Shown: positions 8,990 to 37,591 of the stretch, one piece after another
Layout: each line of letters opens with the position of its first letter
How positions within the stretch are numbered: the stretch's first letter is position 1
Assembly (NCBI GenBank): GCA_003614675.1
Contig: ML002293.1
Span: 1 to 46,667, forward strand
Reading direction: 5' to 3'
DNA from: Dimargaris cristalligena
Lineage: Eukaryota
Length of the DNA: 46,667 nucleotides
The notes under the pieces: generated by a model
What the model saw: only the letters and a program-made list of their open reading frames with translations
What the model was told of the DNA's origin: nothing
Database searches by the model: none
Position numbers and translations under genes: made by a program

Positions 8990-9421
8990 TTTCCCGTGTT
9001 TGTAAAGGGAGCATTGGCCCACTGATCCAAGACGATGAGCGGGGGGTTTGATCAGAACTTCGTTGTTCGATGGCTGTGTATACCCCCTTATGATTCAACC
9101 GGACTACTGGGCTGCTAAACCCGCTTTAATAAATTACCGAGTGGTATAGTAAATATTTTACGATTGGAAAACGCAACATTTATTGATGGGGTGATATGGG
9201 GTAGAACGCAATGGAGGGAGGAACTATGTATGCAACGACTAAATAATGGGTATATGATTGGAGGCGATTGACTAATCATCCTATAAATGATTTGTGCGGA
9301 GGGAGGAATATCACCAATAAGCCCAAATAGGGTATAGATTTCTGACCATAATGTAAGAGAAATCAGCCGGCTAGTCCGAAACCGGCCTACTAAAAGCCCA
9401 ACCGCCATTCCACGGTGGTGG

Positions 9422-9787
9422 TTATTCCTCGGCAGTTTCCTCGGTAACCATATCCGACGAATCCTGGCGACAACCGTGGCAGCGGTTATTACTGAAGTGA
9501 CTGCGAATGCACGAATGGCAACGGTCGCCCCAGTGGTGGCGCCGCGGGCACGGGTGACAACGATTATTCCAATAGTAGCGGCGCTCGCAATGGTGGCAGC
9601 GGTTATCCCAGAAATATTTGCGTTCGCAGTTGTGACAGCGGTTGTCCCAGTAGTGGGAGGTGGTGCAGCGACTACAAACTAGGGCAGTGGTGGCGGCATC
9701 GGCGGAATTATCGGGACTGGTGGTATCGGCCAGGGCGGCAGTGACGGTGGTGAGAAACAGAATAAGGGTGGAATTGGCGACCTTCAT
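9422..9787 (-). CDS. Small secreted cysteine/histidine-rich repeat protein, 121 aa (signal peptide plus 13-aa CxxC repeats)
   Basis: ACC-ATG at 9787 and a signal-peptide-like N-terminus MKVANSTLILFLTTVTAALA. Five 13-aa repeats of type CHxCxRxYxWDNR plus a sixth CxxC. TATAAAAA about 100 bp upstream. The longer 171-aa ORF start in the track is unlikely. Confidence 0.85.
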   Translation of the reverse strand: MKVANSTLILFLTTVTAALADTTSPDNSADAATTALVCSRCTTSHYWDNRCHNCERKYFWDNRCHHCERRYYWNNRCHPCPRRHHWGDRCHSCIRSHFSNNRCHGCRQDSSDMVTEETAEE

Positions 9788-9887
9788 GGTGGGGGAGTAA
9801 TTCTGATAGGGGAGGGGTAGCTGGCAATGGACTGGGGGTCGGAGTCGAATAGGCGAATGTAGTTCTCCTGTGAGAGAGCGGAGGGAC

Positions 9888-9895
9888 TTTTTATA
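9888..9895 (-). promoter_or_regulatory. Putative TATA box of the secreted Cys-rich protein gene
   Basis: TATAAAAA on the minus strand about 100 bp upstream of the ATG at 9787. Confidence 0.5.
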
Positions 9896-10658
9896 CGCAA
9901 TGGGGCGAGACGGCCCTAGCTTACGACCGAAAGTCATCCGAGACTGCCTTTATTAGGATCGGATTGGGGAGGGAGGCGGAATATGATAATTCGCCGAGCT
10001 GTCTGAACAACGTGGCGCTTCATAGCGAATTGACAAGGCAGCTGTTACACGACATTGCTATGAGTCCGAAGGGACCAAGCCCCGAATTCGGCTCCGCTGG
10101 CTAGGGTTAGCTCCGATTAATCACACCCGTCCTCGTTTAGCAAGACGGGGCTGATCACAGTCCATTAAATATCGGCTGCGCCATTCGGACAATAGTAGGA
10201 ATAGTAGTTAGTCGACGACGAGGCCTTGGCTGGAATAAGACTCGCGGTCTATAAACGGGCTACATACATATAAGTGCCGGTCCCTTGTCTCACTTAGCCT
10301 GTCGCCTACTTAAAGGGTTGTGCCGCATGGAAAAACACCGCTATTCCAGGGTGCGGGGGAGGGACAGTCACCCTCCTCCTTCTCTCAACTTCGCCCAGGT
10401 GACCCTGGCGGGCAGAAGAGGTCCCTTGTTTCTTCCCCTCTATTGGCTTCTCCTTTCCCATTCCCCCTTCTTCTTCTCCTTTCTCTCGTTTATTTGACTG
10501 TTGGCAACTTTCTAAACTCCGGTCTTTCAAGTCCATTGCACCCCTTGTATTATCGTTTTAAAAAACCCCCCTCTTTCCCACCAACGAGCCCCCATTGGCG
10601 TACGTCCTGTGTTCTTCTAACCCAGGCTTCCTTTACTTGTTGTATTTACCCCGCGGGC

Positions 10659-13590: not shown

Positions 13591-16500
13591 ATGTGTAAGT
13601 TATGATCCAAGAGGACCACGTCCTCTCTTTCCACTGTTTCAGAGCGGTTGGATTGCTCCACGAGTCAAGAGTATCGCGGCTCCTGTTCCACCCGATGGTC
13701 GCTTCGAAACAGGCCCTGTTTGGTTTACCTGTTATCGAGGTGTAAAGACGGGTCTAGGCACATCGAGACAACGCAACCTAGTCCAAAACAGGTGTAGACA
13801 GCGTCCCATTCCTGGCCATGGCATTCGATTATCCCCCACCCTAGCGACTAAACCTACGCATATGCCCGCACTATTCGTATGTGTATCCATATCCTCTATA
13901 CCTGACCACCGGACTCTATAAACAATCACCAGCCTTCGGAGGCTACAACACAAACACCGGAGGAGCCAGTAAGTAATTACCCCTGTTTTAAGTGTAAACC
14001 CCGATCCCCATTGTGGGCCCACCATCCCTTCAATATGATATATTGCTGATACTAAATGCATCCAAATATATATCTATATCTATCTATCTTCCCATATATT
14101 GCCCAATGATCAGATACAGGTATCTTTGGTGCCCCCGCGTCGTCATCAGGGGGTGATGCGCCTAAACCTTCGCTAGGCTTCGGCACTTTTGGTGGCGGTG
14201 GAGCCGGTCCCACTGGATTTAGTTTCGGAGGAGCGGCCCCGGCCTCTGGAGCTAACCCTGCTCCCGTCGCTGCCAAACCCGCCTCTTTCGGATTCGCGAC
14301 CACCGCCACCAGCAGCGCCGCCGATTCAAGCGGCGCCCCTAAGCCCACCTTTGGCTTTGGCGCGACTCCCTCCTTCGGCGCGCCCGCCTCCAGCTCCAGC
14401 GCGGCTGCTCCTTCTTCCTTCGGTTCGTTCGGTAGCTTCTCCGGGAGTAGTACCTCCACGGCTCCCGCAGCGCTGGCGGAACCGGCCAAACCGGCCGCCT
14501 TCGGTGGCTTTAATTCGACCGGGGCCGCGCCGCTTAGCTTCGGTGGAGCCCCTGCTTCTTCTACCGCTAGTTCCACGGCTGGGGCTCCGCTTTCATTTGG
14601 CGGTGCCCCAGCCACCTCGATGGGCATGGGAGGGTCCGGACTTTTCGGCGGTTCCACCAAGCCCACGGCCGCCCCGGCATTCCCGACCTCCACCGGTGGC
14701 GGTGGAGGATTATTCGGAGATGCGACTGCCCAACCCGGCGGGTTTGGGATGCAGGCCAACAAAGGGGGCAGTCTCTTCGGCATGAATAAGGGCGGCTCTC
14801 TTTCGGCCTCAACGGGCGGTGAAGCCTCGGATAATAAGGAACCAGCGGGTAATGCTTCCGCCTCTATCGCCGGGTCTGCCGGTGGCTCTTCGTTCGGCGC
14901 TTTCTCCTCCATTCCCTCCACTTCGGCAACCGCGGCCCCTTCGTTTGGTGCCTTTTCCTCTATGGCAGGTGCATCGACTGGCTCCACCGCTACTTCCGCA
15001 TCCGCAGCGGCCCCGGCCTCAACTGGGGGCGGCTTTTCTATTGCCGGCAGTTCCAAAGGGAAACAACCCGAGTTCGGGGCTACTACGAACACCGAGGGCA
15101 GTCTACCCGCATCCACTTCCACCTCGATTGCGGGTGCCTCGACGAAGGCAGCCGCCCCACTCGGATTCGGTGCGACCGCCACCACTACTGCTACTACTTC
15201 GGCCCCGGCGGCACCCGGAGGCTTATTTGCCACGGTGACCCCCGCTCTGCCCTTCTCGCAGTCGACGGGTCTGGGTGACAAACCAGCGGGCGGCCCGTTC
15301 GGATTGGGGACGACCACTACTTCTACTGCTACCTCTACGGCCGCTGCCCCAGCGACGTCTGCCCCGTTATCCCTCGGCATTACTGGTACTACTGTGACCA
15401 CCCCGGCACCCCTATCGTTTGGTATCAGTGCTACCGCCCCCACCACTACCACCACCACCTCCTCCTCCATCGCTGCACCCGCAACCTGCGCAGCAGCGAG
15501 CACGCCCGCATCCAACCTCGTTCCGGCGTCTACGGTGAATGCCATCGTCAACAACCTCAAGACCAAAACGCTGGAGGATATTCTGAACAAATGGACCCTC
15601 GAGCTGAACGAGTGTTCGCGCGACTTCCATAAACAAGCCGTGGATGTGGCCAAATGGGACCAGGGCCTCCTGGATAACGGCAAACTGATTTCGCAGTTGT
15701 ACGCCGATACGGTCGAGGCCGAATTCACCCAGAAGGTCATTGACCAGAACTTGGAATACATCGAACTCCAACAAACCGACCTGGCCCGCACGTTGGCGGA
15801 ATACGAAAAAGTGATCCTACCGGTGTACCAGTCCGCCAAAGCCCAATCGTCCAACTCGCACGTGAAAAACGCGGATGATGAACGGGTGCGGGTTTACGAC
15901 CTGGCCGAGGATGTCGGACGGCGGTTGGATAAGGTCAACAATCAGCTCACCGCCATTGTGGACGAAATTAACGAAGTGTCGGGCGTCGGCAATAATGGTG
16001 GGGCCAACGGGGGATCAGGAGAGGGTGCGGGTTCCGCGTCCACGGCTACCCAGCAGCAACGCCCAGGAGCGGCAGGTGGTAACGGTACCGCCCAGGATGA
16101 TGATCCCTTCTCTCAGGTGGTGCAGATTCTGAACCACCACTTGACTTCGCTGGAATGGTTGGACCGGAGCACCCATACGCTGAAACAACGCATCAACGAC
16201 TTAAATCAAGTGCAAACCCAACAACAACAGCAACAGCAGGCCGGACGTAATAACCAGTGGACCGAAGTGGGCAGTCGGCCTTCGACCCAGACCGGTGGAA
16301 TGGCCATGGTAGGAGGGGGGAGTACCAACGGTGGTGGAGGAGCGGCCCGTTATCCGCAGATGCCCCCACCCGGCACGGTGGTTCCCTCGACCCCTTCCTA
16401 CCACCACCGCCCTGCGAGCCACGGTGGGGTGGTGACTTACCCGGGCACTGTCGCCCCATCCACCCAAGCCCGCACCACCTCCGCCCCCCCCGGCGGCGGG

Positions 16501-16599
16501 GGTACTGGGTACTCCGTCCCGGTCTTCCATGATCAATTTTACCCACTCTTTCCAACCGACGCCGTTGTCCCGGTACGCCAGCCAACATACCTGGAGTAG
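13591..16599 (+). CDS. NSP1: FG-repeat nucleoporin Nsp1/Nup62; true C-terminus may extend to 16789
   Basis: Inferred exons 13591-13594 (ATGT|GTAAGT), 13933-13968 and 14114 onward give MSFGGYNTNTGGANTGIFGAP... Many FG/FSFG/SLFG repeats are followed by the Nsp1_C coiled coil (LKTKTLEDILNKWTLEL...WDQGLLDNGKLI...VVQILNHHLTSLEWLD). Confidence 0.9.
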
Positions 16600-35867: not shown

Positions 35868-36307
35868 CAAGACATCCCCGCCCGTTTTAAGCCCCCTTTT
35901 TCCTACATTGAACTTCCCCACAGTCATTGGCTCTATCATGCATTGGCTTCTTATCCCTGACCTTTTTAGCTGATTGTGACCTTGGTTTTTCTACTCACTT
36001 TCTCCTCTCTTCTAGCCTCCTATCCCTTTGATCATTATCCATCCCCGACCTTATTGTACTAGCTATCCGGTCTTATATAGCCCCTGTTTTACTCGCCTAT
36101 ACATCAATCCATTACTACCATCAATATCCCGACTTTGTTTTCATTTACGAACCATTCCTGCGTATAATATAGGCCATTAATCAACCCCAACATTGGATTC
36201 ACGGTTAAATTGTTTATCTAAACACAGTGGTGTGGTTCTAAATCGAATCACCTGTCCCTCCATATCCTCTTCCACTACATCACATCGCATCGCTCTGCTC
36301 CACTACC

Positions 36308-37591
36308 ATGTCAACGGTGATGATGGCGGATATTTCGACCTCGGCCTCCAAGAAGAAGGCCAAGAATAACAGCACCGGCCCCAGTCGCACTAAATGCCGT
36401 ACGAAAGATGAGGTTTGTCAGCGCATGCGTAAATGGCGCTCCCAGAATGCCGATAAGAACCGCCAAAACGACATGCGGTGTCGGGTGTACCGGTTGGCCC
36501 GCCAGCGGTTCGCCAGCGACAAGAGTCCTGAGGCCCAGGCCTGGATCCAAGGTGAAATTGACCGCCGTATCGAAAAACGGCGACTCCGGGAAGCCACCAA
36601 AGGCACTTCGCCGACCTCCGAAACTGACATGCGTCTCTCTTCCACGGGTGAGGGCGCCCACGAGCCCCCTTCGTCCTCCCATGGACGCGACTCCATGGAA
36701 TCCCCATCGCCAGCCTCGTCCTCCTCCAGCTTCTACCGGTCCCAGTCGCCCCCCTCCCATCTGCTCTCGGCCAGTACGAGCCCGGCATGGTCGCCCACCG
36801 CCCTCAGCTTCACCCCCGCTATGCCCGTACCGTTTCGCCAGCCCTACCTGCACTACCAACCCTACCGAGTGGAGGGCCGCCGAGCCAACCCAGCTAGCCA
36901 TATACCCCGCATTGAGCCGCGGACCTCTTCCCCCCATAGTACGCGGACTACCCCTGCCTTGGTCTCCCTGCCGCGGCCGGCCCCTGCAGAACCCCGCATT
37001 GCAGCCCACGGCCTGTCCTGGGAGGTAAACCGCGAATGGCTAAAGGATCTGGCTATCCCCCTCACCAAGACACTGGCCCGGTTCGAATCGGCGTTCGAAA
37101 CGGTGGCGGTTTCCCGGGAACAGCAACCCCGCCACGCGCACATTATTCTACCGGCCCCTCGGCCCACCTCCTCCGCCGCCTACAAGGCGTTGTCCACTGG
37201 GTCCGTGTCACCACCACTGCCGCCATCACCCACTGCCTACCCCCAGCCCCACAATGCCGCCAGCCTGTGTGTCTCTCCCACTTCCATGCCCAGCTCCACC
37301 CAATCCAGCCCTTCCCCGTCTGACCTCTGCTTCTCGCGACCCTCGCCCAATCAAGCGACCACTTATACCATGGCCTATAGCCACCACCACCCTTCGGGTT
37401 ATCCCGCACCGTCCGAACCGTCGCGGGTATCCTTGGGCTCGACCATCGGGGCGCTCACCAGCAGTAGCCGCCCTTTGGTGAAGTGTTTCCCCCAGCCGCC
37501 TAAATTCGGCGGCAAGGCAAACGGGGGCCTTGCGGCCTCGGGCAAATCCGTCTCCGACTTTGTTCTGCCCCCAGTGATCACCCACTTGTAA
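36308..37591 (+). CDS. DUF3020-like domain protein with a long Ser/Pro-rich disordered tail, 427 aa (putative nuclear regulator)
   Basis: ACC-ATG, GC3-rich codons and an NLS-like KKKAK. The segment RMRKWRSQNADKNRQNDMRCRVYRLARQRF...WIQGEIDRRIEKRR resembles the fungal DUF3020 pattern (KWRxxNxxxNxxNDLRCRV...WIxxExxRR), recognised from memory. Confidence 0.8.
   Translation: MSTVMMADISTSASKKKAKNNSTGPSRTKCRTKDEVCQRMRKWRSQNADKNRQNDMRCRVYRLARQRFASDKSPEAQAWIQGEIDRRIEKRRLREATKGTSPTSETDMRLSSTGEGAHEPPSSSHGRDSMESPSPASSSSSFYRSQSPPSHLLSASTSPAWSPTALSFTPAMPVPFRQPYLHYQPYRVEGRRANPASHIPRIEPRTSSPHSTRTTPALVSLPRPAPAEPRIAAHGLSWEVNREWLKDLAIPLTKTLARFESAFETVAVSREQQPRHAHIILPAPRPTSSAAYKALSTGSVSPPLPPSPTAYPQPHNAASLCVSPTSMPSSTQSSPSPSDLCFSRPSPNQATTYTMAYSHHHPSGYPAPSEPSRVSLGSTIGALTSSSRPLVKCFPQPPKFGGKANGGLAASGKSVSDFVLPPVITHL

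What the first reader, a model, noticed from the sequence alone, without database searches (positions are those of the whole stretch)
9422..9787. Orphan-looking secreted protein with six CxxC motifs at exact 13-aa period (candidate new peptide or metal-binding family)
Seen: signal peptide, then an acidic spacer (DTTSPDNSADAATTALV), then CSRCTTSHYWDNR / CHNCERKYFWDNR / CHHCERRYYWNNR / CHPCPRRHHWGDR / CHSCIRSHFSNNR / CHGC, then an acidic tail (QDSSDMVTEETAEE). The ~69-aa cationic core (nt 9470-9676) has 12 Cys, 10 His and 4 Trp, and three repeats carry dibasic RK/RR sites. The gene has its own TATA box and sits among housekeeping genes. Established: fungal Kex2-processed repeat proteins and RiPP precursors have a signal peptide plus dibasic-delimited repeats, and many antimicrobial or toxin precursors pair a cationic Cys-rich core with acidic pro-segments. 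Inference: an effector or antimicrobial precursor, a Zn/Cu-chelating secreted protein, or a disulfide-laddered spore-wall solenoid. I do not recognise the family, and no tailoring enzyme such as DUF3328 is in the window.
Basis: partly seen in the sequence, partly recalled or inferred. Interest (0 to 1): 0.75.

Follow-up and report, generated by a model that had tools for sequence, protein, structure and literature searches.

The report
Secreted CxxC-repeat protein of mycoparasitic fungi
This is a real small secreted protein built from 13-residue cysteine-stapled hairpin repeats; it belongs to a tiny, undescribed family found only in fungi that parasitise other fungi, so it is a candidate tool of that parasitism whose function is untested.

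Summary
Window 9422-9787 (minus strand) encodes a 121-aa protein with a signal-peptide-like N-terminus, an acidic spacer, six CxxC at an exact 13-residue period (12 Cys, 10 His, 4 Trp, net +8) and an acidic tail.

It is not an orphan. Exhaustive and word-based profile searches find relatives only in the mycoparasitic order Dimargaritales: 8 clusters, 12 sequences, four species, including a 147-aa paralogue in Dimargaris cristalligena, the probable source of the window. No Pfam family, solved structure or fold match explains it.

All ten members counted have an even Cys number. Some start and end with a lone Cys (C-x9-CxxC-x9-CxxC-x10-C), and the Dispira orthologues have five CxxC. This favours disulfide-closed C-x9-C hairpin loops, as in furin-like repeats, over Zn(Cys)4 sites. 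AlphaFold2 models each unit as a short turn plus a beta-hairpin (core pLDDT 76-95).

Every member pairs an anionic pro-region with a cationic core, as antimicrobial-peptide precursors do. The dibasic sites are not conserved, so the Kex2/RiPP analogy fails.

Best reading: a lineage-specific secreted cysteine-rich repeat protein, probably an antifungal or effector polypeptide. The function, the oxidation state of the Cys and expression are all untested.

The parts
9887..9895 (-). TATA-like box TATAAAAAG, 108 nt upstream of the start codon
   Evidence: Read directly from the minus-strand sequence; function as a promoter element is inferred, not tested.
9422..9787 (-). Complete single-exon CDS, 121 codons plus TAA stop (9422-9424)
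   Evidence: The same 121-aa sequence is held letter for letter in public protein collections. In-frame GC3 is 0.664 against 0.50-0.54 out of frame.
9728..9787 (-). Signal-peptide-like N-terminus, residues 1-20 (MKVANSTLILFLTTVTAALA), with predicted cleavage after AALA
   Evidence: Hydropathy peak of 2.2 over residues 8-19, small residues at -3 and -1. All family members start MK/MQ plus a hydrophobic stretch. SignalP was not run.
9677..9727 (-). Acidic N-terminal spacer or pro-segment, residues 21-37, net charge -3
   Evidence: The homologous region is 17-121 aa long and net -2 to -33 in the family. It is modelled as disordered in a relative (pLDDT below 50).
9470..9676 (-). Cationic core, residues 38-106: five 13-aa units C-H-x-C-x-R-x-[HY]-[FY]-W-[DN]-[GN]-R plus a closing CHGC
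   Evidence: AlphaFold2 pLDDT is 76-88 over residues 41-100, with the pattern turn-strand-turn-strand repeated in each unit.
9425..9469 (-). Acidic C-terminal tail, residues 107-121 (RQDSSDMVTEETAEE), net charge -5
   Evidence: The paralogue P0004 also has an acidic tail. pLDDT is below 50.

Best explanation
The gene encodes a small secreted cysteine-rich repeat protein of a family confined, as far as public data show, to the Dimargaritales. These are obligate haustorial parasites of other fungi, and the window is probably from Dimargaris cristalligena. After signal-peptide removal the protein has acidic, disordered N- and C-terminal segments flanking a rigid 69-residue core. Each 13-residue unit of the core forms a short turn and a two-residue beta-hairpin ([FY]-W-[DN]-[GN]-R-C). 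Inferred: the hairpin loops (C-x9-C) are closed by disulfides and joined through the CxxC linkers into a ladder, in the manner of furin-like repeats, with the conserved Trp, Arg and His packing between rungs. Inferred, less surely: the acidic segments neutralise or mask the Arg/His/aromatic-rich cationic core until it is released outside the cell. The core then binds an anionic surface (membrane or wall polymers) of the host mould or of competitors, acting as an antifungal/antimicrobial polypeptide or parasitism effector. Shown: the ORF, its repeat, family conservation and lineage restriction, charge segregation, absence of any known family, and confident hairpin models. Not shown: secretion, expression, disulfide state, processing, target.
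For: Real, conserved gene:
- A 46%-identical homologue exists in Dispira parvispora.
- An exhaustive profile search of 1.84 billion representatives gave 14 hits at E<=0.001, 9 of which carry the repeat.
- A core-focused search gave 8 clusters (12 sequences). The seven named ones come from four Dimargaritales species; the eighth is the window's own protein.
- Invariant columns are Cys, His, Trp and Arg. The unit consensus comes from 30 distinct units.

Secreted:
- Signal-peptide-like N-termini occur throughout the family.

Disulfide, not metal:
- All 10 members counted have an even number of Cys after the signal peptide: 12, 12, 10, 10, 8, 8, 8, 6, 6, 6. P0020 has 6, read.
- The Dispira orthologues have five CxxC, an odd number that cannot pair into Cys4 sites.
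- Tieghemiomyces members, and the unannotated P0006, P0012 and P0015, begin and end with a lone Cys around CxxC linkers, so the repeating entity is a C-x9-11-C loop.
- All loops keep the same motif, so they are equivalent.
- The His after Cys is replaced by Q, R or N in some units and relatives.
- The only recurring Pfam signal is sub-threshold TNFR_ELAPOR1_6th, a disulfide module, in 6 of 10 proteins scanned.

Structure:
- AlphaFold2 gives the same turn-hairpin pattern per unit in two members, with core pLDDT 76-88 and 89-95.

Precursor-like layout:
- Cores are +3 to +12 and pre-regions -2 to -33 in 10 of 10 members. In the Tieghemiomyces group the protein ends at the last Cys of a 38-aa core.
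- The repeat itself does not need to be cationic: the P0006 and P0012 cores are -7 and -4. The positive charge is therefore a feature of the fungal family.
Against: - No expression or secretion data were obtained.
- No model coordinates were available, so Cys-Cys distances and the disulfide map are untested.
- The loop-closure topology leaves the first and last Cys of the window's protein and its closest relatives (those with CxxC at both ends) without a partner. That is unexplained.
- The CH-x-C histidine is strongly conserved (19 of the 23 distinct units that start with Cys). The spacing C-x2-C-x9-C-x2-C also resembles short zinc knuckles or ribbons, and noise-level sequence matches include MYND and retroviral zinc knuckles.
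- No basic processing site is conserved at the spacer-core junction. The window's own protein has none, so removal of the acidic segments is conjecture.
- Cationic Arg/Trp could be purely structural (cation-pi stacking).
- No similarity to any known antimicrobial family reaches significance (Defensin-like E 0.19-0.45).
Confidence: 0.45

Rival explanations
1. A secreted metal-binding array. The CxxC pairs and adjacent His chelate Zn or Cu outside the cell, for metal scavenging from the host (zincophore-like) or metal buffering. The acidic segments add weak metal affinity.
For: 12 Cys and 10 His in 69 residues. The CH-x-C histidine is conserved in 19 of 23 Cys-initiated units. Tieghemiomyces members end in a His-rich ...RRHGHC. 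The C-x2-C-x9-C-x2-C spacing is close to short zinc ribbons (recalled). Noise-level hits include zinc-finger chains and families. Giardia VSPs, extracellular CXXC-rich proteins, are reported to coordinate Zn and Fe (10.1101/2022.03.07.483299, passages read).
Against: The secretory route is oxidising. Every member has an even Cys number. Five CxxC in the Dispira orthologues and lone terminal Cys in the short members do not give whole Cys4 sites. All loops are equivalent, whereas alternating intra-site and inter-site loops would be expected to differ. His is replaced by Q, R or N in some units. No zinc-finger family reaches its threshold.
Confidence: 0.2
2. A structural wall or spore-surface protein. 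The rigid disulfide ladder is cross-linked into the fungus's own wall or into polymers through the two 'spare' terminal Cys, giving a protease-resistant coat.
For: The loop-closure topology leaves the first and last Cys of the long members free for intermolecular bonds (inference). CXXC-rich coats such as Giardia VSPs are thought to give protease resistance (10.1101/2022.03.07.483299, passages).
Against: There is no GPI signal, no Ser/Thr-rich stalk, no membrane anchor and no sequon in the mature part (read). The short Tieghemiomyces and Dispira simplex members have no spare Cys. Copy number is small and the protein is small, and the charge-segregated precursor layout is not typical of wall proteins.
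Confidence: 0.1
3. A Kex2-processed repeat protein or RiPP precursor that is cut at its dibasic sites into 13-residue peptides.
For: A signal peptide plus RK/RR in three of five units.
Against: The dibasic site is not conserved: unit position 7 is R or K in 11 of 30 distinct units. The sites lie within the Cys framework, so cutting would not free peptides if they are disulfide-linked. There is no DUF3328 or other tailoring domain in the 45 long frames of the window scanned. Immediate neighbours are housekeeping genes.
Confidence: 0.03
4. An intracellular tandem zinc-knuckle protein whose hydrophobic N-terminus is not a signal peptide, or a non-functional ORF.
For: Weak resemblance to CCHC and MYND fingers. 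No transcript evidence was obtained.
Against: The hydrophobic N-terminus with an AxA-type site is conserved in all members. The His position needed for a CCHC knuckle is not conserved (unit positions 8 and 9 are H/Y/F). Conservation across four species and coding-type GC3 argue against a spurious ORF.
Confidence: 0.04

Closest known systems
[quoted passage not shown] 2018 and catalogued in ScrepYard (PMC9885460, passages read)
   Same: A signal peptide, tandem Cys-rich repeats with internal homology, and more than 4 Cys. Cys are 12 of 101 mature residues. The class is broad, and half of its entries have unknown domains.
   Different: SCREP domains are usually independently folded units of 30-60 aa joined by Cys-free linkers. 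Here the unit is only 13 aa and the linker is the CxxC itself, so this looks like one continuous ladder and not beads on a string.
Furin-like / TNFR-like cysteine-rich repeats (R-spondin, EGFR and ELAPOR1 modules; Pfam PF23091 TNFR_ELAPOR1_6th)
   Same: Extracellular ladders of small beta-hairpins held by disulfides, with C-x2-C between hairpins and aromatic residues in the hairpin. R-spondin furin repeats are described as a ladder of beta-hairpins, three hairpins and four disulfides per repeat (PMC4926470, passage read). Sub-threshold PF23091 hits occur in 6 of 10 proteins scanned.
   Different: No member reaches the curated cut-off: the best is P0004 at 25.4 against 33.2 bits, and the window's protein has no hit at E<=10. 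The period is strictly 13 residues, with conserved H, R, W and R that these families lack. There is no receptor or growth-factor context. That each hairpin loop in furin repeats is closed by its own disulfide is my recollection, not a tool result.
Giardia variant-specific surface proteins and related CXXC-rich proteins
   Same: Extracellular, many CXXC motifs, short beta structures, and a long-standing question of metal versus disulfide (10.1101/2022.03.07.483299, passages read).
   Different: No Pfam VSP hit. There is no transmembrane helix or conserved cytoplasmic tail. The protein is 121 aa and not hundreds. The kingdom is unrelated.
Precursors of cationic disulfide-rich antimicrobial peptides (defensins, plectasin, tachyplesin-type beta-hairpin peptides; recalled, not fetched)
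   Same: Signal peptide, then anionic pro-region, then a cationic Cys-rich part at or near the C-terminus. Arg- and aromatic-rich disulfide-closed hairpins (for the charges).
   Different: No sequence or Cys-pattern match. Defensin-like PF24552 scores only E 0.19-0.45. The hairpins are concatenated five times. No conserved dibasic cleavage site separates the pro-region from the core.

Membership tests
SCREP class (secreted cysteine-rich repeat proteins) | Signal peptide or secreted, no membrane span | tested here: inconclusive
   N-terminal hydropathy and an AALA|D site fit a signal peptide, and there is no other hydrophobic stretch. No dedicated predictor was run.
SCREP class (secreted cysteine-rich repeat proteins) | Tandem repeats with internal homology, more than 4 Cys and about 10% or more Cys | tested here: met
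   Five full 13-aa units share 5-9 of 13 residues. There are 12 Cys in 121 residues (9.9%), or in 101 mature residues (11.9%).
Furin-like / TNFR-like Cys-rich repeats (Pfam PF23091 and relatives) | Score at or above the curated Pfam cut-off | tested here: not met
   P0001 has no hit at E<=10. The best relative, P0004, scores 25.4 bits against a cut-off of 33.2.
Furin-like / TNFR-like Cys-rich repeats (Pfam PF23091 and relatives) | Disulfide-laddered beta-hairpin fold | tested here: inconclusive
   AlphaFold2 gives one hairpin per unit. Fold searches found nothing, or aligned only the signal-peptide helix and adjoining low-confidence N-terminal part. Coordinates and disulfides could not be inspected.
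Giardia VSP (Pfam PF03302) | Pfam match, plus a C-terminal transmembrane helix and a conserved short tail | tested here: not met
   No VSP hit. The protein ends in an acidic, non-hydrophobic tail.
Kex2-processed repeat proteins / dikaritin-type RiPP precursors | Conserved dibasic sites delimiting each repeat | tested here: not met
   Dibasic sites occur in 3 of 5 units here. Position 7 is R or K in 11 of 30 distinct family units, and the sites lie inside the Cys framework.
Kex2-processed repeat proteins / dikaritin-type RiPP precursors | A neighbouring DUF3328 (UstYa-type) or other tailoring enzyme | tested here: not met
   None was found in 12 + 33 long open frames of the window. Frames under 90 aa and spliced genes were not covered.
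CCHC zinc knuckle (C-x2-C-x4-H-x4-C; motif recalled) | Invariant His five residues after the second Cys, and a Pfam match | tested here: not met
   Unit positions 8 and 9 are H/Y/F/N mixtures. zf-CCHC_5 matches only P0002, at E 0.011 and 15.8 bits against a cut-off of 27.
Defensin-like peptides (Pfam PF24552) | Pfam match at the curated cut-off | tested here: not met
   E 0.19-0.45, 11-12 bits against a cut-off of 27, in 2 of 9 relatives. None for P0001.
Metal-binding protein (any) | Bound Zn or Cu in the native protein | not testable with these tools
   Needs ICP-MS or native mass spectrometry. Sequence arguments lean against it.

The most novel reading that the evidence does not exclude
The 13-residue C-H-x-C-x-R-x-[HY]-[FY]-W-[DN]-[GN]-R unit defines a previously undescribed mini-fold: a continuous ladder of single disulfide-stapled Arg/Trp hairpins. 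The Dimargaritales proteins built from it would be a new class of host-directed antifungal polypeptides or effectors, released from charge-masked precursors, which these obligate mycoparasites use against Mucorales hosts. Acidic-core versions of the same module in unannotated, apparently bacterial proteins would hint at an older, wider module.
Probability: 0.2. Interest if true: 0.7.

Novelty: new variant of a known kind. Interest (0 to 1): 0.45.

Why it matters
Dimargaritales are obligate haustorial parasites of other fungi, and in my literature searches I found no description of secreted effector or toxin proteins for them. The two genome papers I read in passages discuss proteases, CAZymes and NRPS, and in those passages do not mention this family.

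A small secreted family confined to this order is a concrete candidate for a parasitism factor that can be tested. It has a very regular repeat that AlphaFold2 models confidently (pLDDT up to 95), and its core was not matched to any solved structure.

If the ladder is real, it is also an unusually short and simple disulfide-stapled repeat, of possible use as a scaffold. If it binds metal instead, it would be a rare extracellular Cys/His metal array. Either way, the oxidation state could be settled by one mass-spectrometry experiment on the secreted protein.

Tried and rejected
- Whole-genome paralogue search: no genome is held for this window. A six-frame scan of the window found no second copy. 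The only other CxxC...CxxC match, at 431-475, is unrelated.
- RNA evidence: no RNA holder was listed for window 9300-10000. This says nothing about expression.
- ESM Atlas: no usable feature hit for the whole protein or for residues 36-108. Structural rows were all TM<=0.37 and unrelated.
- PDB by sequence: P0001 gave 5 rows, all E>=0.86. Profile A2 gave 3 rows at E>=3.2, all on the acidic spacer. P0015 gave none. P0004 gave 4 rows at E>=0.91.
- Fold searches, model of P0001: Foldseek gave 1 row at E 9.9. VIA-align gave 0 of 48,161 chains at Z>=2.
- Fold searches, model of P0005: Foldseek gave 0 rows. VIA-align gave 524 chains at Z>=2 and none at Z>=5. All listed rows align to the first 33-67 residues, which are the signal-peptide helix and low-confidence spacer, so the core was effectively not tested.
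- Word-based search with alignment A3 was swamped by low-complexity spacer words: 4 hits among 8,000 capped candidates. I replaced it with the core-only alignment A4.
- DNA-level scans found no relative: genome contigs with P0012 and with A1, and metagenome contigs with A1 and with P0006. Alignment A3 was too diverse for that tool.
- Earlier scan notes by place, by sequence (P0001, P0004) and by words gave nothing on this gene.
- Five of the 14 hits (P0008, P0009, P0011, P0013, P0014) are unrelated perfect tandem repeats without the CxxC period. I dropped them.
- Heme attachment (CxxCH): none of the six CxxC is followed by His.

Full report
**Observation**

The Cys residues lie at 38, 41, 51, 54, 64, 67, 77, 80, 90, 93, 103 and 106, which makes six CxxC at a strict 13-residue period. 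The 69-residue core has 12 Cys, 12 Arg, 10 His and 4 Trp, with net charge +8. An acidic spacer (-3) and an acidic tail (-5) flank it.

The N-terminus looks like a signal peptide. It has Lys2, a hydrophobic stretch whose Kyte-Doolittle mean reaches 2.2 over residues 8-19, and AALA followed by Asp. No dedicated predictor was available. A TATAAAAAG lies 108 nt upstream of the ATG. The longer 171-aa frame starts upstream of that box, and public collections hold the 121-aa form letter for letter.

The pattern is not chance. One given layout of 12 Cys in 69 positions has probability 1.1e-13. It is also not a recent tandem duplication. The five full units share only 20-26 of 39 nucleotides and use mixed synonymous codons at the conserved Cys, His and Arg. 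In-frame GC3 (0.664) resembles the neighbouring genes (0.652-0.783) and exceeds the other two frames (0.504 and 0.537).

The neighbours are housekeeping genes: a USP7-type protease, glyoxalase, PROPPIN, Nsp1, RPL21e, an L15-type ribosomal protein and a P450-reductase-like flavoprotein. Another 33 long open frames in the window have no Pfam domain.

**Relatives**

The protein is not an orphan.
- A first word-based search found one homologue, 46% identical, in Dispira parvispora.
- A two-sequence profile read against all 1.84 billion representative proteins gave 14 hits at E<=0.001. I dropped five as unrelated perfect tandem repeats. Nine carry the motif.
- A core-only profile (A4) against the 5.8-billion-protein collection gave 8 clusters at E<=0.01 among 265 candidates. 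They stand for 12 sequences. Apart from the window's own protein, whose names are withheld, every one is named as a hypothetical protein of Dimargaris cristalligena, Dispira parvispora, Dispira simplex or Tieghemiomyces parasiticus.

Some near-identical pairs may be alleles or assembly duplicates: P0005/P0016 are 93% identical, and P0010, P0017 and P0018 share one 90%-identity cluster. The paper that produced these genomes reports over 50% duplicated BUSCO markers for D. simplex and T. parasiticus (PMC9866270, passages read).

The window's own protein is held by NCBI, UniRef and EukProt on two contigs, like the D. cristalligena protein P0004. Earlier unchecked notes of this scan also name the genome as D. 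cristalligena. So P0004 (147 aa, 49% identical in the alignment) is probably a paralogue in the same genome.

Scans of prokaryote genomes and JGI metagenomes found no relative.

Three unannotated proteins from SRA/ENA assemblies carry a similar C-x2-C-x4-YYW-[DN]-G-x-C repeat but have acidic cores. They are P0006, P0012 (with a lipobox-like N-terminus) and P0015/P0019. Their origin is unknown.

**Known families**

No Pfam family reaches threshold.
- For P0001 the best hits are a RING finger at E 0.62 and Stc1 at E 9.9.
- Among nine relatives, the only recurring signal is sub-threshold TNFR_ELAPOR1_6th, a disulfide-bonded TNF-receptor-like module. It appears in 6 of the 10 proteins scanned, at best 25.4 bits against a cut-off of 33.2.
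- Zinc-knuckle, double-zinc-ribbon and defensin-like models appear only at noise level.
- PDB sequence searches gave nothing significant, and neither ESM Atlas look-up gave a usable hit.

**Anatomy of the family**

Thirty distinct units give the consensus C-H-x-C-x-R-[RSD]-[HYF]-[FY]-W-[DN]-[GN]-R. This count includes off-register units of the D. simplex group that the pattern also caught, which I did not remove. Cys at position 4 and the closing Cys are invariant by construction of the pattern. Trp is present in 24 of 30 units, the last Arg in 24 of 30, Arg6 in 20 of 30, and His2 in 19 of the 23 units that begin with Cys. Nine of thirteen positions are constrained, which suggests a tightly packed mini-module.

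Two subgroups exist.
- The window's protein, P0004 and the two Dispira orthologues have CxxC at both ends, with six, six, five and five CxxC.
- The D. simplex triplet and the Tieghemiomyces proteins start with a lone Cys. The Tieghemiomyces ones also end with a lone Cys (C-x9-CxxC-x9-CxxC-x10-C), exactly at the C-terminus of the protein.

**Disulfide or metal**

Four features favour disulfides.
- Every member counted has an even number of Cys after the signal peptide: 12, 12, 10, 10, 8, 8, 8, 6, 6, 6. P0020 has 6, by eye.
- An odd number of CxxC (Dispira) and lone terminal Cys (Tieghemiomyces, P0006, P0012, P0015) do not fit whole Zn(Cys)4 sites. They fit a repeating C-x9-11-C loop joined by two-residue linkers.
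- All loops carry the same motif, so they are equivalent.
- In the D. simplex group, an extra Cys inside the last loop appears together with an extra terminal Cys, as expected for a gained disulfide.

As I recall, furin-like repeats are built this way. A paper I read in passages describes them as a ladder of beta-hairpins connected by disulfides (PMC4926470).

Against this, the topology leaves the first and last Cys of the window's protein unpaired. They might pair with each other, stay free, or link molecules, and this is unexplained. The conserved His next to Cys and the zinc-ribbon-like spacing also keep a metal array alive as a rival. Substitution of that His by Q, R or N in some units and relatives argues for a structural role.

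**Models**

AlphaFold2 on a 10-sequence alignment gave pLDDT 76-88 for residues 41-100 of the window's protein. Each unit shows the same pattern: a three-residue turn, a strand at [FY]-W, a two-residue turn at [DN]-[GN], and a strand at R-C. The spacer and tail were below 50.

For the Tieghemiomyces member P0005, the 38-residue core reached pLDDT 89-95 with the same pattern, and the acidic region was below 50.

Fold searches found no counterpart. The one search that returned rows aligned only the first 33-67 residues, the signal-peptide helix and low-confidence spacer. The core's fold is therefore unmatched but not shown to be new. I could not inspect coordinates.

**Function**

In all ten members counted, the core is cationic (+3 to +12) and the region before it is anionic (-2 to -33, 17 to 121 residues). 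The window's protein splits its acidic charge between both ends. The apparently bacterial relatives have acidic cores, so the charge is not a requirement of the fold.

A signal peptide, an anionic and disordered pro-region, and a cationic disulfide-rich C-terminal part together form the classic layout of antimicrobial-peptide precursors (recalled). Arg- and aromatic-rich disulfide-closed hairpins recall tachyplesin-type peptides (recalled).

The family is confined to obligate haustorial mycoparasites. I therefore favour an extracellular antifungal, antimicrobial or effector role on anionic surfaces of the host or of competitors. This is inference. No conserved cleavage site separates spacer and core, and no expression data could be had (see Tried and rejected).

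The Kex2/RiPP idea is rejected. The dibasic site is present in 3 of 5 units here, and the second basic residue in only 11 of 30 distinct family units. The sites lie inside the Cys framework, and no tailoring enzyme is nearby.

**Literature**

I found no description of this family.
- 'dispira parvispora': 0 papers.
- 'dimargaritales' with 'small secreted': 1 paper.
- 'dimargaris' with 'cysteine-rich': 1 paper, where the phrase refers to hydrophobins of another species.
- 'haustorial mycoparasite' with 'effector': 0 papers.

The two genome papers (PMC6784888 and PMC9866270, passages only) discuss subtilases, fungalysins, chitin-related CAZymes and NRPS expansions. Their supplements were not opened and might list secreted families.

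The protein fits the broad, published class of secreted cysteine-rich repeat proteins (PMC9885460, passages).

**Verdict**

This is a real gene and a genuine, lineage-restricted, unannotated family. It is a new variant within the known kind of secreted disulfide-rich repeat proteins. A disulfide-stapled hairpin ladder is the more likely structure (about two to one over metal binding). A host- or competitor-directed polypeptide is the most likely, but untested, role.

Noticed in passing
proteins P0006, P0012, P0015/P0019: Three unannotated proteins from SRA/ENA assemblies carry the same kind of repeat (C-x2-C-x4-YYW-[DN]-G-x-C, often CH-x-C) behind signal-like N-termini, but with acidic cores. 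P0012 has a lipobox-like LLAGC, suggesting a bacterial lipoprotein. P0019 (387 aa) lies on a 2.1-Mb contig. The module may be older and wider than the fungal family. DNA scans found no further copies.
   Followed up: partly
window about 26000-46667: The right-hand 20 kb has lower G+C (0.43-0.50 in most 2-kb bins). None of the 20 long open frames scanned from 26 kb onward has a Pfam domain; the one exception, a DUF3020/SPP41-like gene at 36242-37591, was found. It looks gene-poor or repeat-derived, in line with earlier scan notes on CpG-depleted repeats in this genome.
   Followed up: no
window 14052-15761 (-) against 14620-16599 (+): A 569-aa open frame with no Pfam hit runs antisense to the Nsp1-like nucleoporin gene. 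It is most likely a by-product of the low-complexity FG-repeat coding sequence.
   Followed up: no
protein P0016 (Tieghemiomyces parasiticus): UniRef labels this family member 'C2H2-type domain-containing protein'. Pfam finds no C2H2 finger in its 93%-identical twin P0005, so the label looks like an automatic pattern hit on the CxxC/His-rich core.
   Followed up: partly
window 9115-9408 (-) and 9515-9682 (+): Two short open frames lie beside or opposite the gene (97 and 55 aa). One is the antisense reading of the repeat. Neither has any supporting feature.
   Followed up: no
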